Positions 3,550 to 21,864 of a stretch of 64,000 nucleotides of DNA are shown piece by piece. The translations under genes and the position numbers were made by a program. How positions within the stretch are numbered: the first letter of the stretch is position 1; each line of letters starts with the position of its first letter. The notes below the pieces were generated by a model that was not told the DNA's origin, did no database searches, and was given only the letters and a program-made list of their open reading frames with translations. This DNA is from Patescibacteria group bacterium (GTDB lineage: Bacteria; Patescibacteriota; Microgenomatia; Levybacterales; UBA12049). The stretch covers positions 649,226-713,225 of the forward strand of contig BPJB01000001.1 in assembly GCA_026004395.1 (NCBI GenBank), in the 5' to 3' direction.

Positions 3550-4083
3550 TCAGAGAAATTCAACTATAAATTCTGCTTGATAAAAATTTTTGCTAGTACC
3601 AAATGAATTCATAAATATACGTGCAACTCTTTTGTCTTCTTTTCCTATTCTGTTTAAGCTTTCAATATAAGCGCCTATGCTTGCTAAGTCTTTTGTTTCT
3701 ATAGTTATCTTCAGTGTTTTTTGTTCAACCTCCAGCAATGTAATTTCTAAATCTTGGGGTATATCTTTAGTGAAGGTAATTATAAAATCTCTAAATTTTG
3801 GCCTTTTGGTTACAATCTGAGATATATCATCAAGTCTATTTACAATAAGAGTTTGTTTGGTAATTTTTTCATGTTGTCGGGAAAGTGAATCCAAAAGTGC
3901 ATTTTCTTCATTTTTAAGACGAGGAAGAGGAGAGGCTAGGATTAACAAAAACACAGAAACTGACAAAACTCCAGCAAATAACAATAAAGCTATCGCAATG
4001 AACCTTAGAAGTTTTATTTTGCGAGTGAGTGCTCCAAGTGTACCTCTCCGTTTGCTATAAAGAAAATTGATATCGTTAGTCAT
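3550..4083 (-). CDS. pilN: Type IV pilus assembly protein PilN-like
   Basis: Short cytoplasmic N-terminus with an INFLY (INLLP-like) PilM-binding motif, then one transmembrane helix. Immediately follows pilM. Confidence 0.6.
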   Translation of the reverse strand: MTNDINFLYSKRRGTLGALTRKIKLLRFIAIALLLFAGVLSVSVFLLILASPLPRLKNEENALLDSLSRQHEKITKQTLIVNRLDDISQIVTKRPKFRDFIITFTKDIPQDLEITLLEVEQKTLKITIETKDLASIGAYIESLNRIGKEDKRVARIFMNSFGTSKNFYQAEFIVEFL

Positions 4084-5104
4084 TTTCTCTTAAAGCAAGA
4101 CCGACTGCGACTGTAAATCGCGGCCCTTGTTCCATCAAAATATCAGGAACTCCACTTATCGAACGTACCTTGAAGGGATTACCAATAACAGTCTCTATAC
4201 CACAATTTTTGGCAAAATACAGAGCAAGTCCAGGAAGAAGAGATGAACCACCGCTAATAATAATTTGAGATATTGGACTATCATTTTTGTATTTCTCCGT
4301 ATAATATGCAAGAGCTTTTTTAACTTCTGTAAGCATTGCCTCCAGAATAGGGGAGAGAGCAAGGCTGATTTTTCCTCCCAAGTTTTGATCATTCAGACCA
4401 TATGTTTTTTTATATTCTTCTGCTTGAGTAAGAGCAAATCCAAAATTAGAAGCAATTGCACGATCCATAGCAAGACCACCAAGCGGAATAGTATAGGTAA
4501 AAACAAGAGTATTATTCTGGATGATAGCCAAAGATGTACTCAGTGCTCCAATATTTACAATAAGTAATGCCTTATCTGATTCCTCAGGAACTAAGGAACG
4601 TATAACAGAAATAATTTCTGTTTCGATAGCATTTATTGAAAGTCCTGTCATCTCAATAATTGTTTGATAACGCCTAACAAGATTTGTAGGAGCCCCTACC
4701 AGAAGCACTTGCATTTTAGGACTTATCTCTGACATGGATCCACGCCTTAATACCTTATAGTCAAGTGTCAATGTTGATAACTGTGCTGGAATATGTTGTT
4801 CTGCCTCCCAATATATTGCTGATGATAGCTCTTTATCTGAAAGAACAGGCATATCAATTACTTTGGTAAAGACTTGATTCTCAGGTAAAGCAAGATTGAC
4901 ATTGCGTACAGTGATCTTAGAATCAACAACCAGCTGCTGTATTGCCTGCGCCATTGCCTCCTGATCAATTGCGGACTCTGAAAGCATACCTTTTGCAGGA
5001 GTAACAGTTGTCAGACATGCCTTTAGAGATGTCACTCCCTTATTCTTATCCAACCACACAATTTTCATTGATGTTGCTCCGATATCAAGTCCAAAAGTTT
5101 TCAT
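4076..5104 (-). CDS. pilM: Type IV pilus assembly ATPase-fold protein PilM
   Basis: Actin-like fold with N-terminus GLDIGATSMKIV and C-terminal IIISGGSSLLPGL. Confidence 0.85.
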   Translation of the reverse strand: MKTFGLDIGATSMKIVWLDKNKGVTSLKACLTTVTPAKGMLSESAIDQEAMAQAIQQLVVDSKITVRNVNLALPENQVFTKVIDMPVLSDKELSSAIYWEAEQHIPAQLSTLTLDYKVLRRGSMSEISPKMQVLLVGAPTNLVRRYQTIIEMTGLSINAIETEIISVIRSLVPEESDKALLIVNIGALSTSLAIIQNNTLVFTYTIPLGGLAMDRAIASNFGFALTQAEEYKKTYGLNDQNLGGKISLALSPILEAMLTEVKKALAYYTEKYKNDSPISQIIISGGSSLLPGLALYFAKNCGIETVIGNPFKVRSISGVPDILMEQGPRFTVAVGLALREND

Positions 5105-5107
5105 AAA

Positions 5108-5929
5108 TTAGGGTGAAAAAATACCATGTGGGAAAATCTCAACAGGAAGCGTAGGATACCCTTTATAGACTGTCAGCTTCCTTTCTGTATTAGACGCAAC
5201 CCCAGTTGACTCAATAATCTGTCCTTGAGCTGGAAGAGGTTGAGTGCTGCTTATCCCAAGCCGTGTGGGAGCATAAAGAGGAACTATTCTCATAAGCAAA
5301 CCATTAGTGACCGAAATAGTGTATGAATGAGTAAACTGTTTACCACCAATTATTCCTCCTGATTGAATATTCTGAGAAAAATTATTAACTGACGCTCGTG
5401 CTGAACACGGCTCAAGCATATAGTGTGTCATGGTCAAATTTTGAGGGGAGTTAATATTCCCTGAAATAACAACTATTTGTAGTGCAGACTCTGTATTGGT
5501 AGATTCATTATTTGTACATGTATCAGAAGGTGATCCCCAATAAACAGTAACTTGTGCATTCAACGGAGAAGTGTATGTGGGATAATTAGCTAGCCAAACA
5601 TCAGCACCATCGTCTTTGGGAATAAGATTATAATTATAAACAAGAAATGAACTGCTATTTTTTGCATAGGATGTTATCTTGGCATTAAAAGAAGCATTCG
5701 TTCCCACTTCATCGCTTAATGTTAAAGATTCAGCGCTTGAGTTAATTAGCCTCTCAATACCAGCCTCAGCTGCTGAAAAGGCTTTCTGTGAATTTTCCTC
5801 CTCTTCTGTTGTTCGAAGATTTACAATACTGCGGCTGACAACTGAAAGACCGATAGTTAAGGAAACTACCATTACTAAGATAATGATAAGTAGGATCTGT
5901 CCCTTCTGATAGGATGGTGAAAAATTCAT
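5108..5929 (-). CDS. PilX-N-domain minor pilin / pilus assembly protein
   Basis: N-terminus QKGQILLIIILVMVVSLTIGLSVVSRS matches the PilX_N hydrophobic segment. The C-terminal part is Ser/Thr/Asn-rich. Confidence 0.5.
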   Translation of the reverse strand: MNFSPSYQKGQILLIIILVMVVSLTIGLSVVSRSIVNLRTTEEEENSQKAFSAAEAGIERLINSSAESLTLSDEVGTNASFNAKITSYAKNSSSFLVYNYNLIPKDDGADVWLANYPTYTSPLNAQVTVYWGSPSDTCTNNESTNTESALQIVVISGNINSPQNLTMTHYMLEPCSARASVNNFSQNIQSGGIIGGKQFTHSYTISVTNGLLMRIVPLYAPTRLGISSTQPLPAQGQIIESTGVASNTERKLTVYKGYPTLPVEIFPHGIFSP

Positions 5930-5978
5930 ACTCTCAACTTATCGTAACAAGCACATTTGCTTGTGTCAACTGAAAAGA

Positions 5979-6614
5979 CTATTCTTTCAGGTTACGCATG
6001 ATTACTGTGGACTGGAAAGAAGAAGGTGTTGTCGCATCTACAACACCGCTACTATACTTTTTACTCAAGGTAAAAGAGATTGTAATTGTTGGAAAATTGT
6101 AAAGTGAATTTTGGGTACACGTAAAAGAACATGCTGTTACTACGACAGAAGAAGTATCAACAAGAGAAGCACTATTAGAGGAAATCGTACCATTGGGAAG
6201 ACTGTTACAAGAGAATGTAGTTCGTCCAGCGTCAGGATTCTCTATTATAATTGATGATGTTGTTGCTATATATCCAGTCTCGTTAAAACAAGGAGATGGA
6301 TACTCTAAAGAACGGGCATTACGTATCATTTTTGTTATTTGCGAAAGAGCATAGTTGCCATTTTGCTGGAGGATTGTGACATTTGTACTTTTATTTGAAC
6401 CGCGCAAAGATGCCAACAACACTCCAAAAACAATTCCGCTAACTGATGCTATAACAACAATTACAGCAAGAAGTTCAACAAGAGTAAAGCCTAAATTTTG
6501 CCAACGAAAAATTTTTAGTATCCAATCTTTTATAGTCAATTTCCACTGAAAATCCACTATCTTTACTTTTGAAATTTGAGATTTAAATTTTATACTTGGT
6601 AAATTTTTAATCAT
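5979..6614 (-). CDS. Type IV prepilin-like protein (minor pilin)
   Basis: Class III signal G|FTLVELLAVIVVIA with Glu at +5. The leader in the ORF track is long and the true start is unclear. Confidence 0.65.
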   Translation of the reverse strand: MIKNLPSIKFKSQISKVKIVDFQWKLTIKDWILKIFRWQNLGFTLVELLAVIVVIASVSGIVFGVLLASLRGSNKSTNVTILQQNGNYALSQITKMIRNARSLEYPSPCFNETGYIATTSSIIIENPDAGRTTFSCNSLPNGTISSNSASLVDTSSVVVTACSFTCTQNSLYNFPTITISFTLSKKYSSGVVDATTPSSFQSTVIMRNLKE

Positions 6615-7117
6615 GGTGATTTTTTGGTTGAGTAACTAGACAAGCATGTTTCAACAGTCGTTTTATGACAATAGAGATTATTCACATTTGTACAGGTATT
6701 ATCTCGCCAAGAAACAGTTACAGAAACCTTTGATTGTGTAAGAGTGGGATCATTAGTTGCTTCCTCACAAGAAGATGCATTATGTTGAAGCGTTACTTCA
6801 CGGATGTACCTGTTAGCTACGTTTAATCCACATTCAATACCTTTTGGTCCACAACTTCCTGAATCTGTTGAAAGAGAAGTACACGTATCAGCAAAACAAT
6901 ATGTGGTATTAGGTAAAGAAAAAAATGTACTATATTTATTTTCTTTCATAGTTCGAATGCTCTCTAAAGCATCCTGTGCGTATTGTGTTGCTTGCTGTTG
7001 AGAAGTACTATGAGTGGTATTTTTAAGTGCGGTAATCACTGCTAGTGTAATTGCTGAAAGAACAGCTATGCCTATTGCCAATGCAACTAAAACTTCAATT
7101 ATTGTTTCTCCCTTCAT
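6611..7117 (-). CDS. Type IV prepilin-like protein (PilV-like minor pilin)
   Basis: MKG|ETIIEVLVALAIGIAVL prepilin motif. The C-terminal domain is Cys-containing. Confidence 0.6.
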   Translation of the reverse strand: MKGETIIEVLVALAIGIAVLSAITLAVITALKNTTHSTSQQQATQYAQDALESIRTMKENKYSTFFSLPNTTYCFADTCTSLSTDSGSCGPKGIECGLNVANRYIREVTLQHNASSCEEATNDPTLTQSKVSVTVSWRDNTCTNVNNLYCHKTTVETCLSSYSTKKSP

Positions 7118-7119
7118 AA

Positions 7120-7698
7120 TTATTCAAGACTTATTGCTCCTTGTTGAGTAACAGTTACTCTTAGAGTATTACCATATCCAGTTATACCTATACTCCCAGC
7201 ACCATCTACTCCTCCAGATAAAACTTTAAAAATATATTGTGTTGATGTCGTAGTAGCTGAATCAAATGCTACGTTAGCAGGAAGTGTTTTTGTTGACAAC
7301 TTAGATGTAAGATTACCACAACGAACGTACAACTCATAAGTATTCTGAGTATTACATAGGGAGCCTGTCAATCCACAAATTCTTACCTCGTAGCCATCAA
7401 GGGTATTAGAGTTACATGCTGCAATAGATGGTTTGAGTTGCGATTGTGTACGCGACTTAGCATCCTGTAATAGAGAGATCACATCAAATGCCGCACTTTT
7501 TACAGTCTGAATTTTATTGTAAGAAACAAAAGCTGCCAAGGAAACTGTTGAGATGATGGCAATTATTACAAATACAACTAGCAACTCAAGAAGAGTAAAT
7601 CCATTTCTATTGTCAATATCGACAATTCTATAAATAAAATCAAATCGTTTCTTAATATTTTTTAATAAACTTTTATCAGTGGACAAATTTTTCTTCAT
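7120..7698 (-). CDS. Type IV prepilin-like protein (minor pilin)
   Basis: G|FTLLELLVVFVIIAII motif. Confidence 0.65.
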   Translation of the reverse strand: MKKNLSTDKSLLKNIKKRFDFIYRIVDIDNRNGFTLLELLVVFVIIAIISTVSLAAFVSYNKIQTVKSAAFDVISLLQDAKSRTQSQLKPSIAACNSNTLDGYEVRICGLTGSLCNTQNTYELYVRCGNLTSKLSTKTLPANVAFDSATTTSTQYIFKVLSGGVDGAGSIGITGYGNTLRVTVTQQGAISLE

Positions 7699-8225
7699 GG
7701 ATTATTGAGGACATAGTATTTTCCTGATATACATGATCCACTGGCTGCAGGACTTGGAGGTGTAGTAGTAGCATTTACATCATTATCATTTGCATTCTCA
7801 AGACATGCAGCAAGAGTATACGTTGAGCCATCGGAACTACTGTAATAATAGTAGTTGCCGCCATTATACGATCCAGAACCAGATCCCAATGGATCACATG
7901 GTACTTTACTCATATAAGTAACTCCATTATAAGAAAAACTCTCTGATGTAGGACATGCAGTAAGGTTTATCCTATAGGTATCCTGTCTGATAGGATAGCG
8001 ACCATTATCTGTATGAAAAAGTTGAACAGTGGCTTGCAATTGTCTAAGATCGGCTTTGCGTTGCGCATCTCGAGCTCGTTGTCTCACTCCTACAAAATTG
8101 GTCATCAAAAAAGTAGTCAGCACTCCAATTATTGCGATAACAATCAAAAGTTCGATAAGAGTAAATCCTCTTTTGCTTTTGAAGATGTAACTGATAGTTT
8201 TTATCTCTGAAAATATTTTTTTCAT
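7695..8225 (-). CDS. Type IV pilin
   Basis: KRG|FTLIELLIVIAIIGVL motif. The C-terminus is Ser/Gly/Tyr-rich and Thr/Pro-rich. Confidence 0.75.
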   Translation of the reverse strand: MKKIFSEIKTISYIFKSKRGFTLIELLIVIAIIGVLTTFLMTNFVGVRQRARDAQRKADLRQLQATVQLFHTDNGRYPIRQDTYRINLTACPTSESFSYNGVTYMSKVPCDPLGSGSGSYNGGNYYYYSSSDGSTYTLAACLENANDNDVNATTTPPSPAASGSCISGKYYVLNNP

Positions 8226-8782
8226 GGACTATAATCTGAGCTTGTTACACCATAATTACAGATAATATTCGGATCATTATTAACACTACAGGCAGTAGAT
8301 GGAATACCAAAACGTGCTGTCATATTAAGACACGGATTGCCTTGATTACACGCATCGGGATCTTTTCCCCCTCTCTCAAGACTAGCATAGAGAGCGTATG
8401 TCTGTCTATCTGGAGTTGAGTAATATACGTATCTTCTCTCACCTGTAGGATCAGCAGGAAGAATATTCATATAGGGCTGCCATGAAGATCCCCATTCTAT
8501 CGTGTTACCACCAATACGTATTTTTCTATCTGGTGATGACTCAGGATAACTGCCATAATCATGATAATAAGCTTCAAGGCTACGTTGAATTTGTGCAAGA
8601 TCTGATTTACGTCGCGCGTCATTCGCCTTAAGATATTGATTTCTAGGATCGGTAAGTGCAATTACCCCTGCGGCAAGAATACCAAAAATTGCTGCAACCA
8701 AAATAAGTTCTATAAGGGTAAATCCTTTCTTTTGTGATAAGAAAAATGAAGTAGTCATCTTTTTATAGCTTATAACTTTCAA
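8222..8782 (-). CDS. Type IV pilin
   Basis: KKG|FTLIELILVAAIFGILAAG motif. The probable start is the internal Met at 8758 (MTTSFFLSQKKG). The C-terminal domain contains Cys residues. Confidence 0.75.
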   Translation of the reverse strand: MKVISYKKMTTSFFLSQKKGFTLIELILVAAIFGILAAGVIALTDPRNQYLKANDARRKSDLAQIQRSLEAYYHDYGSYPESSPDRKIRIGGNTIEWGSSWQPYMNILPADPTGERRYVYYSTPDRQTYALYASLERGGKDPDACNQGNPCLNMTARFGIPSTACSVNNDPNIICNYGVTSSDYSP

Positions 8783-8797
8783 AAAAAAATTTCAAAA

Positions 8798-9295
8798 CTA
8801 CTTTGAACCATCAGAAAGCCTTATAGTTGAAAGATAAGAACAATCAATATTTCCTAAAGCAATACATGCCCACTGATTAGTAAAATCTAAAGGTTTACAG
8901 GATGGAAGAGTATTCAAAATACACGCTGATGCTGGCTGAGCTTTTGATAGTTTTGTAAACAAGATGCTCCATTGAGGACAGGATCCGTTTGTCTGGTATA
9001 TAAAACATTCTGTGGGATCAGAAGTACATGCAGAGCTCTGAGGCACTTTTATCATGTAAGTTGTTACTCCCTTTTTCCATTCAGATCCGAATGGTATAGT
9101 AGTAGGATAACAATTATTATCATTGTAATAAGTATCTAGTGCTGCTTTTATTTGCTGAAGACTATTTTTTTCTTCTTCATCACCAACCTTTGCCAAGTTT
9201 TTATATGGATTTAAAATAACAAATGTTAAAAGCAGCATGCTGCTTAAAATTACTATTGATACCAAAAGTTCAATAAGTGTCAAACCCTTCATCAT
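8798..9295 (-). CDS. Type IV pilin-like protein; paralog of the next gene
   Basis: MMKG|LTLIELLVSIVIL motif. The start is set at the internal Met pair at 9295 to avoid overlap with the upstream gene. Shares the YYNDxxCYPxTIPFGSEW block with the 9300-10073 protein. Confidence 0.65.
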   Translation of the reverse strand: MMKGLTLIELLVSIVILSSMLLLTFVILNPYKNLAKVGDEEEKNSLQQIKAALDTYYNDNNCYPTTIPFGSEWKKGVTTYMIKVPQSSACTSDPTECFIYQTNGSCPQWSILFTKLSKAQPASACILNTLPSCKPLDFTNQWACIALGNIDCSYLSTIRLSDGSK

Positions 9296-9299
9296 ATTT

Positions 9300-10073
9300 T
9301 TAACATGCACCATTACATGTAGGTGAACAATATGTGCCTGTACCTTGAGGGACAACATTACATCGCTGGATCGGATCACCGCGACATGCATAATTTCGCT
9401 GTTCAATCGGACAATCTTCAGGAGTCTTTTCAGGATTTACCTGTTGATTACCAGTTGGAGAAGGCGAAGAACCAGGAGGCACAGGAAGAGAAGAAAACAC
9501 CGGATTTGCAACAACAACAGAACAATCAATATTGCCTGATAAAGCACAAGACCATGAGGTGTCATAATTGGGAGGAATACAACTTGAGGAAAAAGACTTG
9601 AGAGGACATGAGACATTTTGTTCAAGATCATTTTTAACGTAGATAATATTCCACTGAGGGCAAGGATCGTTTTGATCTACCTGATAAAGATAGCAATTAG
9701 CAGGATTAGATTCACAGTCTGGAGCTTGAGGAACTTTGGACATATAAACTGTTGATCCCACACGCCATTCAGAACCAAAAGGTATAGTTTTTGGATAACA
9801 ACCAAAATCATTGTAATAGGCATCTAAAGAATTCTTAAGCTCGTTTAAATCATGGGCTCGCGTCGCATCTTTGGCTTTTTTAATCTGTGAAATTGGATCG
9901 ATCAAAATAACAACAAATACTAGTAAAATAGAAAGGATAGCAATCTCTATTATCATTTCCAGCAATGATAAACCTTTAACCGGGTATAAATATTGAGCAA
10001 AATTCTGATAGAAAGGATGTTTATCAACTGCAAAAAGTGGCACTCGTTCTGTTGTATTATCTTTCATGTTCAA
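9300..10073 (-). CDS. Type IV pilin-like protein with a Pro/Ser linker and a Cys-rich C-terminal module
   Basis: KG|LSLLEMIIEIAILSIL prepilin-like signal. A PVPPGSSPSPTG linker is followed by a 10-Cys C-terminal tail. Confidence 0.6.
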   Translation of the reverse strand: MNMKDNTTERVPLFAVDKHPFYQNFAQYLYPVKGLSLLEMIIEIAILSILLVFVVILIDPISQIKKAKDATRAHDLNELKNSLDAYYNDFGCYPKTIPFGSEWRVGSTVYMSKVPQAPDCESNPANCYLYQVDQNDPCPQWNIIYVKNDLEQNVSCPLKSFSSSCIPPNYDTSWSCALSGNIDCSVVVANPVFSSLPVPPGSSPSPTGNQQVNPEKTPEDCPIEQRNYACRGDPIQRCNVVPQGTGTYCSPTCNGAC

Positions 10074-10837
10074 AATAGGAAAAAATACTGCTTTGCAATT
10101 GACTCAAATATATTACCCCACAACATGACAAGTATTGTTCCAAAAACCAAAAATGGACCAAAAGGGATTGTATCTCCATGTAATTTCTTCTTTTTTAGTA
10201 AAACTAGTATGAGAGAAAGTATTGCACCTGTCAAGAAAGCAATATATAAACCTATGATAATTCCAGGAAAACCAAGAATAAATCCCATAACAAAAGAATA
10301 TAAAACATCTCCAAAACCCATACCTCTTCCTCTTGTCAAAAGGAAAACCGCCAAGAAAAATCCTCCTGCTGCAATTGCACTAACAACATGCGAAAAAAAT
10401 GAACTTTGATTGAGGATCAAAATCCCTATTCCTGAAATAAATGCCAAAAAAATACTTTGTACAGGAATAATGCCATAACGCCAATCTGTGACAAATATTA
10501 CAAAAAGTGATGCTAGCAAAAGAGTATAAAAAGATAATAAAAGGATAGAGGCATTTTTTAATGTTAAAAATATTATTGCAAAAATTATTCCCATTAATAC
10601 CTCGCTTACTGGATACCAAAATGACAGATTAGCATGACATGTTCTACATTTTCCTTGCAAAAAAATAAAAGAGAAAAGGGGGAAAAGCTCATACCACTTA
10701 AGAATACGCTGACAATTATCACAATGAGATCTTCCACTTATAAATGATTGATTTTTTGCAGATCTGTCTGCAACAACAAGAAAGAAACTTCCGAAAAATA
10801 ATCCTGCAAGAAAAGCAAATACCACTGACAGATCCAT
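10070..10837 (-). CDS. pilD: Prepilin leader peptidase / N-methyltransferase (A24 family)
   Basis: N-terminal CxxC...CxxC zinc motif (CDNCQRI...CRTC) and a multi-TM body containing GFGDVLY. Confidence 0.85.
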   Translation of the reverse strand: MDLSVVFAFLAGLFFGSFFLVVADRSAKNQSFISGRSHCDNCQRILKWYELFPLFSFIFLQGKCRTCHANLSFWYPVSEVLMGIIFAIIFLTLKNASILLLSFYTLLLASLFVIFVTDWRYGIIPVQSIFLAFISGIGILILNQSSFFSHVVSAIAAGGFFLAVFLLTRGRGMGFGDVLYSFVMGFILGFPGIIIGLYIAFLTGAILSLILVLLKKKKLHGDTIPFGPFLVFGTILVMLWGNIFESIAKQYFFLF

Positions 10838-12933: not shown

Positions 12934-13742
12934 ACAGTTCATATTTCCAAAGAATCAAACAAAAAATGCAATACCTTATTCGTTATGCATATATTTCTCC
13001 TCAAAAAAATATCGTTACTTTATATAAAACATGGTTCTATGTAATTATGGATCTTTTCCCCTGGAAAAAGGGTAGAGTAGTAACTCACATCCTGAATAAC
13101 GGGACACGATTCCTAATCCGACTACATTCATTCGATATGATTATTCTTAATGAAATATATATTCTTAATCTTTACTTACCTTTCACTTCTTTAATTAAAA
13201 AAGGAGATGTAATAGATATTGGAGCACATATTGGTATTTTTTCAGTATTCGCTGTTCATACATTTAAACCTCATCGTGTTCTTGCCTTTGAACCATACAC
13301 TCCCAATTTTTCATTATTGAAAAAAAATATAGAGTATAATAAGCTCACGTCAATCATCTTACCCATCAAATTAGCAGTAGGGGAAAGAAATGGCAAAGGC
13401 AATCTTTTTATTGATGAAAAAAACACAGGGGGTCATTCACTACATACTAATCTCCTCTCAAAATCAGAACATAAAGAAATTATCTCCATCACCACTCTTG
13501 ATAATATCTTCACAACCCATTCAATTAAGAATTGTTCAATACTTAAACTAGATTGTGAAGGTGCAGAATACGATATTCTCAAAGCTGCATCAGACGAAAC
13601 ACTTAAAAAAATACAATTAATTATTCTCGAATATCATCCCAACTATTCACTTGAAAAACTGCAATCTTTTCTAAAAAACAAAGGATTTATTATTTCACCC
13701 GGAAGATCGGGTTTTCCTATTCTATTTGCTATTAAAAGATAA
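12930..13742 (+). CDS. FkbM-family SAM-dependent methyltransferase
   Basis: DIGAHIGIFSVFA glycine-rich SAM motif and FkbM-like architecture. Confidence 0.65.
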   Translation: MNSSYFQRIKQKMQYLIRYAYISPQKNIVTLYKTWFYVIMDLFPWKKGRVVTHILNNGTRFLIRLHSFDMIILNEIYILNLYLPFTSLIKKGDVIDIGAHIGIFSVFAVHTFKPHRVLAFEPYTPNFSLLKKNIEYNKLTSIILPIKLAVGERNGKGNLFIDEKNTGGHSLHTNLLSKSEHKEIISITTLDNIFTTHSIKNCSILKLDCEGAEYDILKAASDETLKKIQLIILEYHPNYSLEKLQSFLKNKGFIISPGRSGFPILFAIKR

Positions 13743-13756
13743 GTAAGAAATAATTT

Positions 13757-15766
13757 TTACTGCACAAGCGCTCTTACATCTTCCTTAAGTGGTTTACCAA
13801 ATTTTTGTTCATATACTCTTGCGATATCTTCAGCATGTTTTTCATTTTTAACACAAGAAGTATATGTTACATACAACAAAACATAACCCTGCGCATATGC
13901 AGGATCGCCTGCAACGACAGTTTGGAATGCTGAGAGAGCTTTTGCACAATCTCTCTTTGCCAAAAAATACGTTCCTTTACCAACAAGTGATGTTTTCTCC
14001 TCAGGATGTATTGCAAGTGCTTTATCATAAAATAAATTAGCAAGTTCCATGTCATTGTATTTCAAAAGAATATATTTCCCCGAAAAACCGTAAGCTACAG
14101 CATACAGAACAGGAAACTCTGCTATAGTAAGATTGCGCTCTGCAAGTGTAAGATCACTCTTTTTCTTATAGTTAAGATTTGATAGAAGTCGCATTTGTTG
14201 CTTGGCATATCTCTCTTTTTCCATCTCCTGTGTTGGTGACACAAGTTGATAAACAAGTCCGTATGGCCTCCAATGGTAACCCTTTTTTTTAAACTCTGAA
14301 CTGAGAATCTCAGTTAATGAAAAAACCTCTCTCTTTTTATGCATGGATATCAGTGCAGGAACAAGAGGATTTTTCTCCTTTGGATATTCTTTTTTTGCGT
14401 GTTTTATTTCGCTTTCAAGAAGTTGTGAAGTATTTAATCGTGCCAAATTAATAATATCTACATCCTCACGAATATGAAATGCTGTCTGCACAAATTTAGT
14501 ATTAAAAAAAATACTATCTCCATACAAAAAAAGAACACTTTTCTGAGGAAGATTGCTAATTATATCTCTCCCCAAATTTTCACCTATCATAATCCCTCGT
14601 AAATTTGTTTTGGGAAAATTGTTAATAAAAAGCGTTAATGGTATTATGCCAAAAAGTGTTATAATCGCCAAATTGTAAGATTTTATACGACTTTTTTCTG
14701 GAAGACGTGACAAGATAAATGCGTTGATTATTGTAATGAATTCTAAAAACCCAATTGGAAATAAAAGAAGTAACAATATAGCAGAATTTTGATAAAATCT
14801 CTCAATTACACCATGTTGAAAACTTGAATACATTGGTGTACTGACGTACATTACAAAAAATGGACCAAAAAGAAAAATCGCCAATAAAAAACTAAAAAAC
14901 AGTAAATAGTGTTTGCGCAAAATAAGAGAAATCAGACCAAGTAAGACAAAAAAAATGACAGGCGGAGTAAGCTCTACAAAAATATCAAATACATATTGTT
15001 TAAGAGATAAAAAACGATTTATTGTATCTATTGCTCCAGGCATATACCCATAATCTAAACGCAAAATATATCTTATAAAAGACTCAATGGAGTTAACTTT
15101 AGTCCACAGTGTCTCTCCACCAAAAAAAGAGGCAAATGGAATATACAAATACGGTAGAAGTCCAATCAAAGCAAACAAAACACCTCTTAAAATTACTTTA
15201 AATTGTCTTAATAATGAAAGATTTTTATAAAAAACTAGCAAAGCAAGACTTGGAAAAAGAAGAACAATAACTAAATGATGGGCGAGAGTAAGACCACCAA
15301 CAAAACAAAGAAGATAAAAAAGTCTAGTTGTTTTATACTTTTGATAAAGAAGTGTGATATACAACAAAAGTAAAAGAAAAAAACTATGCATAGCAAAAAC
15401 TTCAGATAGTTCAGCATATAGCCAAAAAGTTGAATATGTACCCAAAATTAATGCGGAAATAAAACCAATCAAAGTATTTTTAGTTAAAAAATAAGATATT
15501 TTATAAAATACTACGACAGCAAGTGCTGAAGAGACAGCCGATATCAAGCCCACTTTCCATGTAAATGATTGGGAGAGGGGAAAAAAAGAAAACAAAATTC
15601 CCAAAAGAGTATATAAAGGATAGCCAGGAGGATGTGGATAGGTAAAATTATAAATAGAATACAAAAAATCTCCTACATCACCACCAAAAACATGATCAGA
15701 AAGATTTAGTGTATAAACAAAAATAAAAAATAAAAAAAGAATTAAAGATGGTTTTATAAAACGCAT
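13757..15766 (-). CDS. DUF2723 (TMEM260/TMTC-like protein O-mannosyltransferase family) membrane protein with C-terminal TPR repeats
   Basis: N-terminal DHVFGGDVGDF...HPPGYPLYTLLG block, about 11 TM helices, and C-terminal TPR-like repeats. Sits 10 nt downstream of the pilin gene on the same strand. Confidence 0.55.
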   Translation of the reverse strand: MRFIKPSLILFLFFIFVYTLNLSDHVFGGDVGDFLYSIYNFTYPHPPGYPLYTLLGILFSFFPLSQSFTWKVGLISAVSSALAVVVFYKISYFLTKNTLIGFISALILGTYSTFWLYAELSEVFAMHSFFLLLLLYITLLYQKYKTTRLFYLLCFVGGLTLAHHLVIVLLFPSLALLVFYKNLSLLRQFKVILRGVLFALIGLLPYLYIPFASFFGGETLWTKVNSIESFIRYILRLDYGYMPGAIDTINRFLSLKQYVFDIFVELTPPVIFFVLLGLISLILRKHYLLFFSFLLAIFLFGPFFVMYVSTPMYSSFQHGVIERFYQNSAILLLLLFPIGFLEFITIINAFILSRLPEKSRIKSYNLAIITLFGIIPLTLFINNFPKTNLRGIMIGENLGRDIISNLPQKSVLFLYGDSIFFNTKFVQTAFHIREDVDIINLARLNTSQLLESEIKHAKKEYPKEKNPLVPALISMHKKREVFSLTEILSSEFKKKGYHWRPYGLVYQLVSPTQEMEKERYAKQQMRLLSNLNYKKKSDLTLAERNLTIAEFPVLYAVAYGFSGKYILLKYNDMELANLFYDKALAIHPEEKTSLVGKGTYFLAKRDCAKALSAFQTVVAGDPAYAQGYVLLYVTYTSCVKNEKHAEDIARVYEQKFGKPLKEDVRALVQ

Positions 15767-15776
15767 GTATTATTTA

Positions 15777-16331
15777 TTATAATACAGCGCACCAGTAGCA
15801 GTCAGCAGAGCCTCCTTTTGATTTGCACGTTGCTGATGTGGGAGTACCGTCAATACCGTAAATTGTATTGGCATCTCTCTGTTGTGCTTTTGATTGAGGT
15901 TTGTAGCAGGCTGTTACAGTATTTGTTGATCCTGTGAAATAAATCTCTTTGATAATATTTGTTGCTGTATTATAACCAGTTTTAAGCTCTCCATCACTTA
16001 TCAAAGCCTGAACACATGTAGTTCCACCATCAACAGAAGAGTTCAAATTAACCGAAACTGCATTATAATCATTACCTGAGCAACCCAAATAACCTCCCTC
16101 ATTAGTACTAGCCCATGGCATACCATTATGTGTAGTAAAGTAGCGAAGATTTGCATTGATAAACTCAACTGTACTATTTTTTACATTTGAATCTTGGGCT
16201 TTTTTCAGTTGCTCAAAAGGATCAATTGTGGCAATGAGAGCTGATGCAAGAATACCTAAAATTCCAATAACAACTAAAAGCTCTATAAGTGTGAATCCTT
16301 TTGAAAGTGATTGAATTCGGGCAGTTATCAT
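15777..16331 (-). CDS. pilA: Type IV pilin (major pilin candidate)
   Basis: Short leader MITARIQSLSKG|FTLIELLVVIGILGILA. It has its own AT-rich upstream region. Confidence 0.8.
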   Translation of the reverse strand: MITARIQSLSKGFTLIELLVVIGILGILASALIATIDPFEQLKKAQDSNVKNSTVEFINANLRYFTTHNGMPWASTNEGGYLGCSGNDYNAVSVNLNSSVDGGTTCVQALISDGELKTGYNTATNIIKEIYFTGSTNTVTACYKPQSKAQQRDANTIYGIDGTPTSATCKSKGGSADCYWCAVL

Positions 16332-16516
16332 ATTTGCTTAAAATTTATCTCTACATTAATTATTGACATGTATTTTAAAAGTTGTCAAGTAGTATTTTGG
16401 TCTAATTCTATTTTCTCTATCATTTTAGCTTAATCTAAATTACTAATAATTTACTTCTTTGTTCGCTGTCTATATAAAAATTTAATAAATTTGATATAAA
16501 ATTATTTAATTGAAAT
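16332..16516 (-). promoter_or_regulatory. AT-rich promoter region upstream of the pilA-like gene
   Basis: 185-nt intergenic stretch. The minus strand reads TTGACA, a 17-nt spacer, then CAATAAT (plus 16360-16388). Confidence 0.3.
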
Positions 16517-17914
16517 TTAATTCTTGCTTATAGGCAGAGAAAAAGTAACAGATGTCCCTCTACCGATACCATCTGAGTGTATCCAGATTTCTCCTCCATG
16601 CATCTGAACAATCGATTTACAGATATAAAGCCCCAGTCCTGTTCCTTGTGTTGCTGATTTGTTGACTGTATAAGAACCATGTAGAAAACCGAATTTTTGA
16701 AATAACCTTGGCATTTCCTCCTGTGGAATACCTGATCCAGTGTCCGAAATTACCGTATCAACTCTTTGATCTTTTGGAGAGTAGGAGAGAGTTATTGTAA
16801 TTTTTCCACCAACAGGTGTAAATTTAATTGCATTATCTAGCAGATTATTAAGTACCTCCTTTATTTTCTCAGGATCAGCAACCACATTGGGAATTTCTTG
16901 AGGAAAATTACAAGAAAGAATAAGACCTGCTTGTTCGATGCGCGGTTTCAGCTCATCAACCACTTCTGAGATGAGATTGGGAAGAGCTGTTGACTGAAGT
17001 GCGAGAGAGATTCTACCTGACTCAATCCGAGAAATATTGAGCATATCGCCAACAAGTTTTATCAGTCTATCAACTGATGTGTAAGCTCTATTCAAATAAT
17101 ACACCTGCTTCTCAGTCAAAGGACCGCCTCTGCCAGCAAGCGCCATCCACAAATACGACTTAATCGCTGTCATGGGTGTACGCAACTCATGTGAGGCTAA
17201 AGATACAAACTCGTCTTTTAATACATCTAACTCCTGAAGCTTCTGATTACTTTTTTGTAACTCTTGATAAAGAAGTGCATGATCCATCACAATTCCTACA
17301 ACACCAACCAGACGACCAATTAAATCCATTTGATACTCTGTAAGTTCTTTTTCTGTTGCCTGATGACCAACTACAATTGCTCCCAGAGTTTCCTCTCGAA
17401 CCCTCAAAGGAAAAATCAGATAGGTTTTTATTTGACTAAGCTGCTGAAGTTTATTTGCCTCCTCATCAGATAAATCATGAAGTGTCACCTCTTTTAGATT
17501 GTTGGTTGCTTTGTACCTGCCTTCGGTTACTACCTGCACAATTGCATTTTCTTTTTTAGCAAGAGAAATGGCTTCACCCGGTTGAGCATAATTTTTAAGT
17601 CTCTCTCTGCTTGCCTCAATATTGGAACTCTCTGCTATACCAAATCTCACAAGCATCTTTTTTTGTTTATCAATAACTAAAATACTCGCAAAAAGAAAAT
17701 CAGCTTCTGTAACTAAAATTCTGGCAACTTGTGTTGCGATCTCAATTGGATCATTGACAGAGCTAAAAATAATATCGTCTATTCTTCTAAAAAGAGTAAG
17801 TGTCTTATTGCGTTCTGCCAGCTCTATATTTTTTCTGAGCATTTCCTGATTAATATGTTCAAGATCTTTTGTTATATCGCTTTGTTGAGATTGAATTTGT
17901 GTAACATCTGACAT
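16517..17914 (-). CDS. Sensor histidine kinase (GAF-HisKA-HATPase), cytoplasmic
   Basis: H-box SHELRTPMTAIKSY and G-boxes GTGLGLYICKSIVQMHGG. No TM segment. Confidence 0.85.
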   Translation of the reverse strand: MSDVTQIQSQQSDITKDLEHINQEMLRKNIELAERNKTLTLFRRIDDIIFSSVNDPIEIATQVARILVTEADFLFASILVIDKQKKMLVRFGIAESSNIEASRERLKNYAQPGEAISLAKKENAIVQVVTEGRYKATNNLKEVTLHDLSDEEANKLQQLSQIKTYLIFPLRVREETLGAIVVGHQATEKELTEYQMDLIGRLVGVVGIVMDHALLYQELQKSNQKLQELDVLKDEFVSLASHELRTPMTAIKSYLWMALAGRGGPLTEKQVYYLNRAYTSVDRLIKLVGDMLNISRIESGRISLALQSTALPNLISEVVDELKPRIEQAGLILSCNFPQEIPNVVADPEKIKEVLNNLLDNAIKFTPVGGKITITLSYSPKDQRVDTVISDTGSGIPQEEMPRLFQKFGFLHGSYTVNKSATQGTGLGLYICKSIVQMHGGEIWIHSDGIGRGTSVTFSLPISKN

Positions 17915-17920
17915 ATTTCT

Positions 17921-19402
17921 TCAAAGAATTGTATGTTCTAATTCTTTTACCTCCTGATGTTTGTTTTGTGAGTTGGCAATGAATTCCCTATCTGAGTCTG
18001 CAAATTTTTTCAGTGTAAAGGAGAAAGTCGCCCCTTTGCCTATCCCATCAGAAAAAGCACTTATCTTACCTCCATGCATCTGAACAATTGATTTACAAAT
18101 ATAAAGCCCCAGTCCTGTTCCAACCGTTGCGTTTTTGTTTACTGTATAAGATCCTGGAAGAATACCAAACTTTTGGAAAAGCTTCGGCATATCCTCCTGT
18201 GGTATTCCAATACCATTATCAGATATACTAACAGTAACAAATTTCTGATCCGACGTAAAGGTAATAACAACTGATCCACCTCTAGGAGTAAACTTTAAAG
18301 AATTACCAATAAGATTGATCAAAACTTCTTTGATTTTGGTAGCGTCTGCAAGAACTGGAGGGATATTGATTCCGTGAGAAATAGTTATAGATATACCAAG
18401 TTCTTCTGCTCTTGGTAATACTTCTTCATAAACCTCGTGTGTAAGTTTTTCTATATCTACTTGTTCTAAATTGAGAGCAATCCTTCCTGACTCGATACGT
18501 GAGATATTCAGCATATCGTTTACTAATTTAATTAACCTATCTGAAGCATTATATGCTCGTTCCAAATAATAATGTTGCTTCTTGGTCAAAGAACCGCCTC
18601 TGCCAGCAAGCGCCATCCACAAATACGACTTAATCGCTGTCATGGGTGTACGCAACTCATGTGAGGCTAATGATACAAACTCGTCTTTTAGTTGATCTAG
18701 CTTCTGTAATTGATCATTTGCTTCCTTTAACTGTTTAGTTGCCGAGGTGAGATTACGATAAAGCAGTGCATGCTGAAGAGCGATAGATGAACCATCAACA
18801 AACATCTGAAAAATAGTATATTCATAACTAGTGATTTCAGATTCTTTTTTAGGAGTACTGGCAACAAACACTCCAATCGGTTCATTTTCCATATAAAGTG
18901 GATAAATAAGAGTAGTACGAGTCTTCATGATAGACTGAATTTTGAAAGCTTCTTCTGCTGACAGAACAGGGCAGAGGACATCATAAACTTGAGTCGTTGT
19001 ATAGTGTTTTTTTTCTCTAAGAGAACGCGCCATAAGATTATTGGGATCATTGATACTTATCTCAATCTGTGTAAAAGGTACTCGAAGTGCTTGGATTGCT
19101 TTTTCTGCTTCTTCAGTATGAGATGCAGCTATACGACGTAAAACTTTGCGATCTTTATCGTAAATGGCTAAAACACCAGTAGCAAATTTGAGCTCGCTAG
19201 GAATATAATCAGCAATCTTTTGTGCTACTGCCTCAAAATTGAGATCACCAAGAATTATTTTATTGATTTTTTGAGCTGCAAGAATAGCTTTCTTCTGATA
19301 GTTTAGCCTATTATGAGTAAATCTTACGAAAACAAAAAGAAATGCAAGTGTCAAAAAGATAACCAACCCATTTACCAAAAAAAAGGCAGTTTCAATACTC
19401 AT
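17921..19402 (-). CDS. Sensor histidine kinase (TM-GAF-HisKA-HATPase); paralog of the preceding gene
   Basis: One N-terminal TM helix and the same H-, N- and G-box blocks as its neighbour. Confidence 0.85.
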   Translation of the reverse strand: MSIETAFFLVNGLVIFLTLAFLFVFVRFTHNRLNYQKKAILAAQKINKIILGDLNFEAVAQKIADYIPSELKFATGVLAIYDKDRKVLRRIAASHTEEAEKAIQALRVPFTQIEISINDPNNLMARSLREKKHYTTTQVYDVLCPVLSAEEAFKIQSIMKTRTTLIYPLYMENEPIGVFVASTPKKESEITSYEYTIFQMFVDGSSIALQHALLYRNLTSATKQLKEANDQLQKLDQLKDEFVSLASHELRTPMTAIKSYLWMALAGRGGSLTKKQHYYLERAYNASDRLIKLVNDMLNISRIESGRIALNLEQVDIEKLTHEVYEEVLPRAEELGISITISHGINIPPVLADATKIKEVLINLIGNSLKFTPRGGSVVITFTSDQKFVTVSISDNGIGIPQEDMPKLFQKFGILPGSYTVNKNATVGTGLGLYICKSIVQMHGGKISAFSDGIGKGATFSFTLKKFADSDREFIANSQNKHQEVKELEHTIL

Positions 19403-19465: not shown

Positions 19466-20245
19466 TTAAGTACGCTGCCTCACATAAAGTACATCTTCAT
19501 TCACAATTAATTCTTTAAGACCACAATATCTTAAAGCAGTATTTATCTCATCAACTGTCACATTACCTGCACGGTGAAGTCGTGGCTTCTCTCCTGTAAG
19601 ATCTATTATTGATGTAGATTTTCCTCGAGATTCATCAAGATGACTAAAATCTCCAAGTACTATTCCATCTACAAGATACTGAAATTCTGCCCAAACTTCC
19701 TGCATGTATCTATGCGTTGCTTGACCACTTCTATTGGCTGATGTCCCAACAAGTGCAGTTTTGTTATAAGACTCTCTAAGTTCATTAATAATATATCTTA
19801 TGGCAGGATACTCTGTCCAAATTGAAAGGATTGTTTTCTTCTCTCCATTATGAGAGACTACATAATCGGGTATCTCATCACGAGAGGGAAGTATAACACC
19901 AAGTGCATGTAGACGTTGTTGAAGTGTTATGACATGTTCATGAGTAACTTCATTCTTAAGTTGTGAGAAATCCGCAAGCTCATCAAGATTTTCTGGAGCA
20001 CTCACTGCTACTAGTTTTTTATCCTGAGGCCTATTTTTGACTTTAACTATGCGCTCAGCGGCTTGAGCATTGTACAGATCTCCAAATATTCCGTAAATTC
20101 CATTGAATGCCACAACAGCTATACCACCATTATTTATAATCTTTGCAGCTTTGGATAAATGATCTGACTTATATATTGTAAGCAGTTCTGCTTGAGTTTG
20201 CTGCAGATTATTTTCTCTGTGATTGGATATTCTTTGCTCAACCAT
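19466..20245 (-). CDS. YrdC/Sua5-family (threonylcarbamoyl-AMP synthase-like) protein
   Basis: GGIAVVAFNGIYGIFGDLYNAQAAERIVKVKNRPQDKKL resembles the YrdC-domain core. Confidence 0.5.
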   Translation of the reverse strand: MVEQRISNHRENNLQQTQAELLTIYKSDHLSKAAKIINNGGIAVVAFNGIYGIFGDLYNAQAAERIVKVKNRPQDKKLVAVSAPENLDELADFSQLKNEVTHEHVITLQQRLHALGVILPSRDEIPDYVVSHNGEKKTILSIWTEYPAIRYIINELRESYNKTALVGTSANRSGQATHRYMQEVWAEFQYLVDGIVLGDFSHLDESRGKSTSIIDLTGEKPRLHRAGNVTVDEINTALRYCGLKELIVNEDVLYVRQRT

Positions 20246-21441: not shown

Positions 21442-21864
21442 ATGCAATCAAATGAAGATAATACAATTCAGGGTAGGACAGTACAGGGGACATCCGCAAA
21501 CCGTAAAATTCTTATTATTGATGATGATCTCTATATCCGTGATCTCTATGAAGAAGTATTAAGAGATGATGGTTTTAATGTTGAAACAGCTGTAGATGGT
21601 GAAGAGGGACTGATGAAACTCCAAAAAGGAGGATATGATCTTGTACTTCTTGATGTAATGATGCCCAAACGAGATGGATTAGGAGTGTTAACAGAGCTTG
21701 CACTTCATCCACCTCAAACACCAAACGGACCAATCATCGTTCTAACCAATCTTGGACATGATCCTATTATTAAGGAAGCTATGAGCAAAGGAGCAGCATC
21801 GTATCTAAATAAAGCTGATATGACACCTGATCAGCTATTGGCGAATATCAAGAAGTTTCTTTAG
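21442..21864 (+). CDS. Single-domain response regulator (CheY-like receiver)
   Basis: KILIIDDD...DLVLLDVMMPKRDG...K receiver motifs with no output domain. Confidence 0.8.
   Translation: MQSNEDNTIQGRTVQGTSANRKILIIDDDLYIRDLYEEVLRDDGFNVETAVDGEEGLMKLQKGGYDLVLLDVMMPKRDGLGVLTELALHPPQTPNGPIIVLTNLGHDPIIKEAMSKGAASYLNKADMTPDQLLANIKKFL

What the first reader, a model, noticed from the sequence alone, without database searches (positions are those of the whole stretch)
16517..19402. Tandem paralogous GAF histidine kinases with a 106-nt near-identical tract (gene-conversion signature)
The two kinases have diverged overall, but 17115-17220 and 18585-18690 differ at only 2 of 106 nt. This tract is the HisKA H-box region (SHELRTPMTAIKSYLWMALAGRGG). 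A second island of about 50 nt with 2 mismatches covers the G2 box. Mosaic nucleotide identity like this points to ongoing gene conversion between neighbours.

One kinase is membrane-anchored and the other is cytoplasmic. Both lie directly upstream of the pilA-like gene, which recalls PilS-type control of pilin expression.
Basis: seen in the sequence. Interest (0 to 1): 0.55.

Follow-up and report, generated by a model that had tools for sequence, protein, structure and literature searches.

The report
Gene conversion between neighbouring histidine kinases
Two old, otherwise diverged sensor kinase genes next to a pilin gene in a Patescibacteria genome keep copying a roughly 100-base stretch (the phosphorylated helix) onto each other, a clear but mechanistically ordinary case of gene conversion.

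Summary
17115-17220 and 18585-18690 differ at 2 of 106 nt, with a 78-nt perfect core. The two genes are otherwise 56% identical in nucleotides and 48% in protein. A second island, 16593-16645 versus 18069-18121, has 2 mismatches in 53 nt.

Gene conversion is strongly supported. Four independently assembled lineages carry the same HK1-HK2-pilin locus. In each, the two paralogs are identical or nearly identical in the tract, yet orthologs differ between lineages at silent sites as much as anywhere else in the gene (tract dS 0.33-0.67). There are 15 'concerted' and 0 'orthologous' sites in the tract, against 7 and 450 in the rest of the genes. Tract endpoints differ by lineage, and transfer runs in both directions. 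This excludes assembly artefact, recent duplication and nucleotide-level constraint.

The tract is DHp helix alpha-1: the phospho-acceptor His plus the partner-docking residues. I infer that both kinases serve the one conserved receiver-only response regulator nearby (21442-21864).

The PilS analogy holds only for the link to the pilin gene, which recurs in relatives. There is no PilS architecture, PilR or sigma-54 promoter.

This is a new, well-documented member of a known kind of process. Interest is moderate.

The parts
17921..19402 (-). HK1: membrane-tethered (one N-terminal TM helix) GAF-HisKA-HATPase_c histidine kinase, 493 aa
   Evidence: ORF. Pfam domains. Hydropathy. Exact protein found in a Patescibacteria MAG.
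16517..17914 (-). HK2: soluble GAF-HisKA-HATPase_c histidine kinase, 465 aa. It starts 6 nt after the HK1 stop codon.
   Evidence: Its sensor domain belongs to a different old subfamily from that of HK1.
18585..18690 (-). Conversion tract, HK1 copy. It encodes DHp helix alpha-1 (KDEFVSLASHELRTPMTAIKSYLWMALAGRGG), including the phospho-acceptor His.
   Evidence: 2 of 106 nt differ from the HK2 copy. Concerted evolution shown. Aligns to HK853 alpha-1 around His260.
17115..17220 (-). Conversion tract, HK2 copy.
   Evidence: Same evidence as the HK1 copy. The perfect 78-nt core is 17123-17200.
18069..18121 (-). Second, shorter homogenised island, HK1 copy. It covers the G2 box and the end of the ATP lid (GTGLGLYICKSIVQMHGG).
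   Evidence: 2 of 53 nt differ. Over alignment columns 440-461, which contain the island, there are 3 concerted sites and 1 orthologous site, against 7 and 450 in the rest of the genes (Fisher p 3e-5). V->I and M->L are shared by both copies in the L105 lineage. In L001, HK1 carries the HK2-type Gln codon.
16593..16645 (-). Second island, HK2 copy.
15777..16331 (-). Type IV pilin-like gene (prepilin N-terminal methylation motif GFTLIEL), 184 aa.
   Evidence: Pfam N_methyl and NCBIfam TIGR02532. In the same position in L001 and L105-L107, and next to single kinases of either type in L108-L111.
16359..16388 (-). Sigma-70-like promoter match (TTGACA-18-AATAAT, 11 of 12) about 28 nt upstream of the pilin start codon.
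   Evidence: This is a consensus match only. No sigma-54 -24/-12 match with up to 2 mismatches lies in 16332-16516.
21442..21864 (+). Receiver-only response regulator, 140 aa. It is the only receiver domain in the window and the inferred shared partner of HK1 and HK2.
   Evidence: Pfam Response_reg. Only REC hit in the window. Orthologs at 96%, 72%, 62% and 39% identity lie near HK1-type or HK2-type kinases in L105, L108, L109 and L111. A receiver-only gene lies near the family's kinases in 14 of 19 loci counted (18 fetched loci plus the window). The partnership itself is inferred.
13757..15766 (-). TMEM260-like / PMT-type glycosyltransferase directly downstream of the pilin gene. Context only; possibly pilin glycosylation.
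   Evidence: Pfam PF11028. Syntenic in L001, L105, L106 and L110.
4076..10837 (-). Type IV pilus gene cluster (context): PilM 4076-5104, minor pilins 5979-9406, prepilin peptidase 10070-10837.
   Evidence: Pfam hits. N-terminal methylation-motif repeat family D3.

Best explanation
HK1 and HK2 are two ancient paralogous GAF-sensor histidine kinases, one membrane-tethered and one soluble. They lie head-to-tail at the Sua5-kinase-pilin junction of a type IV pilus locus in a Patescibacteria (Microgenomates-like) genome.

**Mechanism.**
- Short-tract, non-reciprocal homologous recombination (ectopic gene conversion) between the two direct copies, 1470 nt apart, repeatedly overwrites the segment encoding DHp helix alpha-1. 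This segment holds the H-box, the phospho-acceptor His and the residues that dock the response regulator.
- The same happens less often at the G2 box.
- Conversion has recurred since the four sampled lineages split. It has different endpoints in each lineage and runs in both directions.
- It is confined to these segments for two reasons. They are nearly invariant in protein sequence across the whole kinase family, so they keep enough nucleotide identity to seed recombination. Longer tracts reaching into the diverged sensor and catalytic parts would be selected against.

**Consequence (inferred).** The two kinases keep an identical phosphotransfer and docking helix. They therefore feed two different cytoplasmic GAF-sensed signals into the same receiver-only response regulator (21442-21864). 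That regulator probably acts on type IV pilus function by protein-protein contact rather than by transcription. Heterodimers of HK1 and HK2 are possible.

**Status of each step.**
- Shown: the identity tract, the concerted evolution, the domain mapping and the conserved neighbourhood.
- Inferred: the recombination mechanism, the shared partner and the pilus output.
For: **The tract is real and exceeds chance.** 2 of 106 nt differ. No silent-site permutation out of 20,000 reached the observed run.

**The same locus occurs in four lineages from independent assemblies.** These are the window, L001 (GCA_900174565.1), L105/L106/L107 (three JGI samples) and L002 (GCA_964405165.1).

**The tract evolves in concert.**
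- Paralogs within a genome match at 95/96, 96/96 and 51/51 nt. Window and L001 orthologs match at only 86/96.
- Tract dS is 0-0.05 between paralogs and 0.33-0.67 between orthologs. The latter equals the ortholog values for the sensor and CA regions (0.27-0.74).
- Paralog dS elsewhere is 1 or more, or saturated, even in the well-conserved helix alpha-2.
- Site patterns: tract 15 concerted / 0 orthologous; G2 region 3 / 1; rest 7 / 450. Fisher p is 2e-23 and 3e-5.

**Events are independent and bidirectional.**
- Endpoints differ by lineage.
- HK2 in L105 and L001 carries HK1-state residues at the tract edges.
- HK1 in L001 carries the HK2-state Gln near G2. Both L105 copies share V->I and M->L.

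**The duplication is not recent.** Sensor domains fall into two old subfamilies: 120 of 120 HK1 hits score higher against the HK1 sensor, and 120 of 120 HK2 hits against the HK2 sensor. An NJ split of the sensor regions separates 61 of 61 sequences.

**Mapping and partner.**
- The tract aligns to HK853 alpha-1 around His260. HK853 pairs with a receiver-only regulator.
- One receiver-only regulator is in the window.
- Its orthologs accompany either kinase type elsewhere.
- A receiver-only gene lies near the kinase in 14 of 19 loci, and a pilin-like gene in 10 of 19.
Against: - No reads were available, so read-level support for each copy was not checked. Bubble-popping by an assembler could raise a very high identity to 100%, although it could not create the pattern.
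- The tract is invariant in protein sequence across the whole family, including genomes with a single kinase at the fetched locus. Conversion is therefore not needed to keep the proteins alike and may be a neutral by-product with no function.
- No experiment links these kinases to the receiver-only regulator or to pili.
- About half of the related loci have no pilin gene nearby.
- Nine other tandem kinase pairs in fetched loci lack such a tract, so this is not a general property of neighbouring kinases.
- The recombination machinery of this organism was not examined.
Confidence: 0.88

Rival explanations
1. Assembly artefact. A metagenome assembler collapsed or chimerised two similar regions and so made the tract look identical.
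For: The window comes from a metagenome-assembled genome. Short identical repeats are a known trouble spot for such assemblies. Reads could not be inspected.
Against: - The pattern is present in at least four separate assemblies from different projects and samples.
- Each assembly has its own silent-site state, and that state is shared by both copies.
- The window retains 2 mismatches.
- The flanks on both sides are in frame and orthologous in every assembly.
Confidence: 0.03
2. Constraint at the nucleotide level. An RNA structure, an internal regulatory site or extreme codon preference keeps the same bases in both genes without any recombination.
For: - The tract encodes the most conserved peptide of the family.
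- A weak terminator-like hairpin match lies inside it.
- A Woesebacteria pair (L037) also shows raised codon identity at the H-box, 13 of 16.
Against: - Silent sites in the tract differ between lineages as much as in the rest of the gene (ortholog dS 0.33-0.67), so the bases are free to change. They simply change in both copies together.
- The RNA fold of the tract is unremarkable, z = -0.47.
- Helix alpha-2 is equally conserved in protein but saturated at silent sites.
Confidence: 0.03
3. Recent tandem duplication of one kinase, followed by very fast divergence everywhere except the H-box.
For: The genes are adjacent, on the same strand, and share the same domain order.
Against: - The sensor domains belong to two old subfamilies. 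Each has many relatives at 40-55% identity in other genomes, and the two are only ~23-30% identical to each other.
- Paralog dS outside the tract is saturated.
- Single kinases of either type occupy the same position in other genomes.
- Lineage-specific tract states require events after the lineages split.
Confidence: 0.02
4. Conversion is real and is also selected for. Homogenising the docking helix keeps two sensors wired to one regulator, or keeps them able to form heterodimers. New helix variants then spread to both kinases at once and co-evolve with the regulator.
For: - The tract covers the His and the alpha-1 positions known from EnvZ and HK853 work to set partner specificity (established knowledge; alignment).
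- Only one receiver protein is nearby, and its orthologs accompany both kinase types.
- Amino-acid changes have been carried into both copies: V->I and M->L in L105, and Val->Gln in L105 HK2 at the 5' edge of the tract.
Against: - Within the core tract all between-lineage changes are synonymous (pN = 0), so purifying selection alone explains the protein identity.
- The shared amino-acid changes lie in the ATP-binding domain or at the tract edge, not in docking residues.
- There are no functional data.
Confidence: 0.2

Closest known systems
Interlocus (ectopic) gene conversion and concerted evolution of bacterial paralogs, e.g. tufA/tufB in Salmonella and the 26 long-lasting cases catalogued in PMC6053082
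   Same: - Paralogs within a genome are more alike than orthologs between genomes.
- Silent sites are homogenised.
- The process recurs over time.
- The products work in the same pathway.
   Different: - Here conversion covers only ~100 nt and ~50 nt islands inside genes that are otherwise saturated at silent sites, not whole genes.
- Histidine kinases are not mentioned in that paper's main text.
- Full-text searches found no report of conversion limited to the DHp helix of neighbouring kinases.
HK853-RR468 of Thermotoga maritima (PDB 2C2A, 3DGE): a HisKA kinase with a receiver-only partner
   Same: - It is the best solved-structure match of the kinase core (E 1e-34).
- The H-box sequence is almost the same (SHELRTPLTAIK).
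- The nearby regulator is a stand-alone receiver that matches RR468 and TrrA.
   Different: - Here there are two kinases with GAF sensors in place of the HK853 sensor.
- The locus is tied to pilus genes.
- Phosphotransfer is untested.
PilS-PilR control of pilin transcription (Pseudomonas, Myxococcus)
   Same: A sensor kinase gene lies beside the major pilin gene, and the association recurs in relatives.
   Different: - No six-helix membrane domain and no PAS domain.
- No NtrC-type PilR.
- No sigma-54 promoter. The regulator is receiver-only.
Insulation of paralogous two-component pathways after duplication (Laub laboratory work on EnvZ, RstB and NtrB/PhoR; recalled from established knowledge)
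   Same: It concerns the same alpha-1 residues just after the phospho-acceptor His, which determine partner choice.
   Different: The outcome is the opposite. These residues do not diverge to avoid cross-talk; they are kept identical, here with the help of conversion. This implies many-to-one wiring.

Membership tests
HisKA-class sensor histidine kinase | DHp (HisKA) domain with an H-box histidine | tested here: met
   PF00512 scores 63.5 and 61.6 bits against a cutoff of 26.9. SHELRTP aligns to HK853 His260.
HisKA-class sensor histidine kinase | HATPase_c catalytic domain with a G2 box | tested here: met
   PF02518 scores 92.8 and 105.2 bits. The GTGLGL motif aligns to HK853.
HisKA-class sensor histidine kinase | Autophosphorylation and transfer to a receiver domain | not testable with these tools
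   Requires biochemistry.
Interlocus gene conversion / concerted evolution | Paralogs within a genome are more similar than orthologs between genomes, in a bounded tract | tested here: met
   95/96, 96/96 and 51/51 nt within genomes, against 86/96 between window and L001 orthologs. Ortholog dS is 0.33-0.67 and paralog dS 0-0.05.
Interlocus gene conversion / concerted evolution | The flanks show the ordinary orthologous pattern | tested here: met
   7 concerted and 450 orthologous sites outside the two islands.
Interlocus gene conversion / concerted evolution | Independent events: variable endpoints and direction | tested here: met
   Lineage-specific endpoints. HK1-to-HK2 and HK2-to-HK1 transfers.
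Interlocus gene conversion / concerted evolution | Not an assembly artefact (read-level support) | tested here: inconclusive
   Four independent assemblies agree.
PilS-PilR pilin regulation system | PilS architecture: about six N-terminal transmembrane helices plus a PAS domain | tested here: not met
   HK1 has one hydrophobic helix and HK2 none. The sensor domain is GAF, with no PAS hit.
PilS-PilR pilin regulation system | Cognate NtrC-type PilR (REC + sigma-54 AAA+ + HTH) | tested here: not met
   The only receiver protein in 64 kb is 140 aa and receiver-only. The rest of the genome was not seen.
PilS-PilR pilin regulation system | Sigma-54 (-24/-12) promoter upstream of the pilin gene | tested here: not met
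   No match with up to 2 mismatches in 16332-16516. A sigma-70-like match is present instead.
PilS-PilR pilin regulation system | Kinase gene linked to the major pilin gene | tested here: met
   185 nt separate HK2 and the pilin gene. The linkage recurs in L001, L105-L111, L037 and L010.
Named NCBIfam kinase equivalogs (PnpS, WalK, PhoR and others) | Whole-protein score above the curated cutoff | tested here: not met
   The best hit is PnpS at 180.8 bits against a cutoff of 400, and only the kinase core matches.

The most novel reading that the evidence does not exclude
Conversion of the docking helix may be a selected device rather than a by-product. It would keep a membrane-tethered and a soluble GAF kinase locked to one receiver-only regulator of type IV pili in an ultra-small symbiotic bacterium, or able to heterodimerise. 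Any change in partner specificity would then spread to both sensors at once. More broadly, the invariant H-box may act as a recombination joint through which sensor modules and kinase cores are exchanged across Microgenomates. That would explain why kinase cores do not sort by sensor type.
Probability: 0.18. Interest if true: 0.65.

Novelty: new member of a known kind. Interest (0 to 1): 0.42.

Why it matters
- **A counter-example for two-component evolution.** Work on how two-component systems evolve stresses that duplicated kinases diverge at the helix alpha-1 specificity residues so that the pathways become insulated. This is a clean natural case of the opposite. Two old, functionally distinct sensors have a docking helix kept identical, with recombination actively erasing silent divergence.
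- **A testable prediction.** Many-to-one wiring onto one receiver-only regulator, in Patescibacteria, where signalling is almost unstudied and type IV pili are central to the host-attached lifestyle.
- **A caution for phylogenetics.** Kinase trees and co-variation analyses that include the H-box can be misled by conversion.
- **Limits.** The process itself, short-tract ectopic conversion, is well known. So this is a solid documented example, not a new principle.

Tried and rejected
- **Metagenome scan with HK2.** Only the L001 contig came back as a close relative. The other 21 loci were distant kinases and gave no new lineages.
- **Genome-collection scan with a family alignment.** Most of the 80 loci were Chloroflexota or Nitrospirota kinases matching only the core. 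They served mainly as a baseline: none of nine other tandem pairs has a long identical tract. The 104-nt 'repeat' in L039 is just two overlapping ORFs.
- **RNA-element idea.** The fold of the tract has z = -0.47, and silent sites vary between lineages. Rejected.
- **Terminator-like hairpin inside the tract.** One hit against 2.8 expected by chance. Rejected as chance.
- **Sigma-54 promoter search.** 24 hits against 22 expected, none upstream of the pilin gene.
- **Named kinase families in NCBIfam.** None reaches its cutoff.
- **Literature searches for kinase-specific gene conversion.** No relevant precedent found. This reflects only the papers held in that library.
- **L037 (Woesebacteria) pair.** Only a modest rise in codon identity at the H-box, 13 of 16 codons and a 20-nt longest exact run. 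Too weak to call conversion.
- **Older conversion across the whole catalytic domain.** HK1 is nominally the closest non-orthologous core to HK2, but only at 0.59 against 0.58. Not significant.
Full report
**1. What is there**

The window is low in G+C, about 30-39% in 2-kb windows. HK1 is an exact match to a protein of a Patescibacteria metagenome-assembled genome on a 1.08-Mb contig.

The minus strand carries these genes in order:
- Sua5/YrdC, 19466-20245.
- HK1, 17921-19402, 493 aa.
- HK2, 16517-17914, 465 aa, starting 6 nt after the HK1 stop.
- A pilin-like gene with a prepilin methylation motif, 15777-16331.
- A TMEM260-like glycosyltransferase, 13757-15766.

Further along lie glycosyltransferases, the prepilin peptidase (10070-10837), minor pilins (5979-9406) and PilM (4076-5104).

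Both kinases are GAF + HisKA + HATPase_c. HK1 has one strong N-terminal hydrophobic helix and HK2 has none. The only receiver domain in the 64 kb is a 140-aa receiver-only protein at 21442-21864(+).

**2.

- 17115-17220 and 18585-18690 differ at 2 of 106 nt. The perfect core is 78 nt.
- The genes overall are 56% identical in nucleotides and 48% in amino acids.
- The excess identity lies at silent sites. In the tract there is a run of 24 consecutive identical-residue codons using the same codon, or 30 if one mismatch is allowed.
- The neighbouring DHp helix alpha-2 is 80-95% identical in protein but shares only 4-6 of 15-18 codons.
- No permutation of silent-site matches out of 20,000 reached the observed run.
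- The second island, at the G2 box, is 16593-16645 / 18069-18121, with 2 mismatches in 53 nt. On the window alone it is only marginally significant.

**3. Direct test of gene conversion**

Protein searches found close orthologs of both genes. Their contigs show the same HK1-HK2-pilin-TMEM260 order in three more lineages:
- L001, from GCA_900174565.1.
- L105/L106/L107, from three JGI samples and about 99.8% identical to each other.
- L002, from GCA_964405165.1, where HK2 is cut off at residue 249.

Orthologs are 84-92% identical in nucleotides.

In the tract the two paralogs of one genome match at 95/96, 96/96 and 51/51 nt, while window and L001 orthologs match at only 86/96. Each lineage has its own silent state, present in both copies. 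Examples are Arg CGT/CGC/CGA, Ala GCC/GCA/GCT, Tyr TAT/TAC and Arg AGA/AGG.

Nei-Gojobori estimates:

| Region | Paralog dS | Ortholog dS |
|---|---|---|
| Tract | 0-0.05 | 0.33-0.67 |
| Sensor | 1.0-1.5 | 0.27-0.74 |
| CA domain | 1.15-2.8 | 0.30-0.69 |
| Helix alpha-2 | saturated (pS 0.83-0.90) | 0.29-1.21 |

Site patterns over three lineages:

| Region | Concerted sites | Orthologous sites | Fisher p vs rest |
|---|---|---|---|
| Tract | 15 | 0 | 2e-23 |
| G2 region | 3 | 1 | 3e-5 |
| Rest of the genes | 7 | 450 | - |

The endpoints differ by lineage:
- In L105 the tract runs two codons further 5' and six codons further 3'. This gives HK2 the HK1-type Gln.
- In L001 it runs about twelve codons further 3'. 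This gives HK2 the HK1-type His and Glu.

At the G2 region, both L105 copies share V->I and M->L. In L001, HK1 carries the HK2-type Gln codon, so transfer runs both ways.

These results exclude three rivals:
- An assembly artefact, because four assemblies each show their own state.
- A recent duplication.
- Nucleotide-level constraint, because silent sites change freely between lineages and the RNA fold is unremarkable at z = -0.47.

**4. The pair is old**

- All 120 listed relatives of HK1 match the HK1 sensor better than the HK2 sensor. All 120 listed relatives of HK2 do the reverse.
- In a 61-sequence sample the sensor regions split perfectly by type. Identity is 44% within a type and 23% between types.
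- Single kinases of either type occupy the same slot, between Sua5 or other genes and the pilin gene, in other Microgenomates contigs. L109, L110 and L111 have the HK1 type and L108 the HK2 type.

The identical tract therefore cannot be a leftover of duplication.

**5. What the tract encodes, and the likely consequence**

- The kinase core is most similar to Thermotoga HK853 (E 1e-34). The tract aligns to helix alpha-1, from nine residues before His260 to about 22 after it.
- From established work on EnvZ/RstB rewiring and the HK853-RR468 complex (my own knowledge, not tested here), the alpha-1 positions 7, 11 and 12 residues after the His dominate partner choice. They lie inside the tract.
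- The same peptide is nearly invariant across the family.
- The receiver-only protein near the kinases has clear orthologs near HK2-type-only (L108, 72%) and HK1-type-only (L109, 62%; L111, 39%) loci.
- A receiver-only gene lies beside or near the family's kinases in 14 of 19 loci examined.
- The receiver's best structural relatives include the stand-alone receivers TrrA and RR468.

I infer that both kinases signal to this one receiver protein, and that heterodimers are conceivable.

Because the tract is invariant in protein even where only a single kinase lies at the fetched locus, the simplest reading is that conversion is a tolerated by-product. Strong protein constraint keeps enough nucleotide identity to seed recombination. 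Selection then trims any tract that reaches diverged parts. An adaptive role, keeping two sensors co-wired, is possible but not shown.

**6. The PilS idea**

The link to the pilin gene is real and recurs: a pilin-like gene lies near the kinase in 10 of 19 loci. That supports a role connected with type IV pili.

The defining PilS-PilR features are absent:
- No multi-helix membrane domain or PAS domain.
- No NtrC-type regulator in the window.
- No sigma-54 promoter upstream of the pilin gene. It has a good sigma-70-like match instead.
- No named NCBIfam kinase family reaches its cutoff.

The output is more likely a CheY-like protein-protein interaction. This is inference.

**7. Novelty**

Short-tract conversion between bacterial paralogs is a known process. 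A survey of long-lasting concerted evolution in prokaryotes does not mention kinases in its main text (PMC6053082). Full-text searches found no report of conversion limited to the DHp helix of neighbouring kinases. Nine other tandem kinase pairs in the fetched loci show nothing similar.

I rate this a new, well-documented member of a known kind, of moderate interest. Its main value is as a natural counter-example to post-duplication insulation of two-component pathways.

**8. Limits**

- No reads were available and no biochemistry was done.
- Only four closely related lineages were found.
- The rest of the genome was not seen, including other receivers and the recombination genes.
- The promoter call is a consensus match only.

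Noticed in passing
window 21848-22741 (-): A 297-aa multi-pass membrane protein. Its C-terminal ~60 residues align to the HK1 DHp domain (pairwise E 5e-5) but carry Ala where the phospho-acceptor His should be (GAELREP versus SHELRTP). It has no ATPase domain. Its 3' end overlaps the receiver-only gene convergently by 17 nt. A gene fragment (3-572) overlaps the receiver gene in the same convergent way in L105. It could be a His-less DHp pseudo-kinase or a scaffold for the same receiver.
   Followed up: partly
family-wide (proteins P0003-P0180): Sensor domains sort perfectly into HK1-type and HK2-type (61 of 61). The alpha-2 + catalytic cores do not (best split 43 of 61; identity 55.8% within a type and 54.2% between types). 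Either cores have been exchanged between the two types over long periods, or the duplication sits at the base of the radiation and the sensors diverged in a burst.
   Followed up: partly
window 16517-17220 (the part of HK2 encoding its kinase core); 110 of 120 relatives chosen by similarity to HK2 have catalytic domains that score higher against the HK1 catalytic domain than against HK2's own. The HK2 catalytic domain in this lineage therefore looks unusually diverged.
   Followed up: no
window 10916-13742 (+) versus L105 9772-11282 and L106 8725-10242: The glycosyltransferase and methyltransferase genes between the TMEM260-like gene and the prepilin peptidase vary between otherwise syntenic lineages. 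The window and L001 have three genes, L105 has one, and L106 has two short fragments (168 and 96 aa). This may be a variable pilin-glycosylation island.
   Followed up: no
L037 26-3721 (Candidatus Woesebacteria contig JAYRQZ010000003.1): A related arrangement: an HK2-type soluble kinase, a receiver-only gene on the opposite strand, a multi-TM kinase without GAF, then a pilin-like gene overlapping the kinase stop codon. Codon identity at the H-box is modestly raised (13 of 16) but there is no long identical run.
   Followed up: partly
window 6449-6491, 7560-7602, 8126-8168, 16256-16298: Repeat family D3 is the nucleotide footprint of the shared prepilin N-terminal hydrophobic helix in four pilin or minor-pilin genes, at 70-72% identity. 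This is ordinary paralogy, not conversion.
   Followed up: no
window 18595-18612 (-): A terminator-like hairpin match lies inside the conversion tract. It is the only hit in the scanned region, against 2.8 expected by chance. I judged it a chance match.
   Followed up: yes
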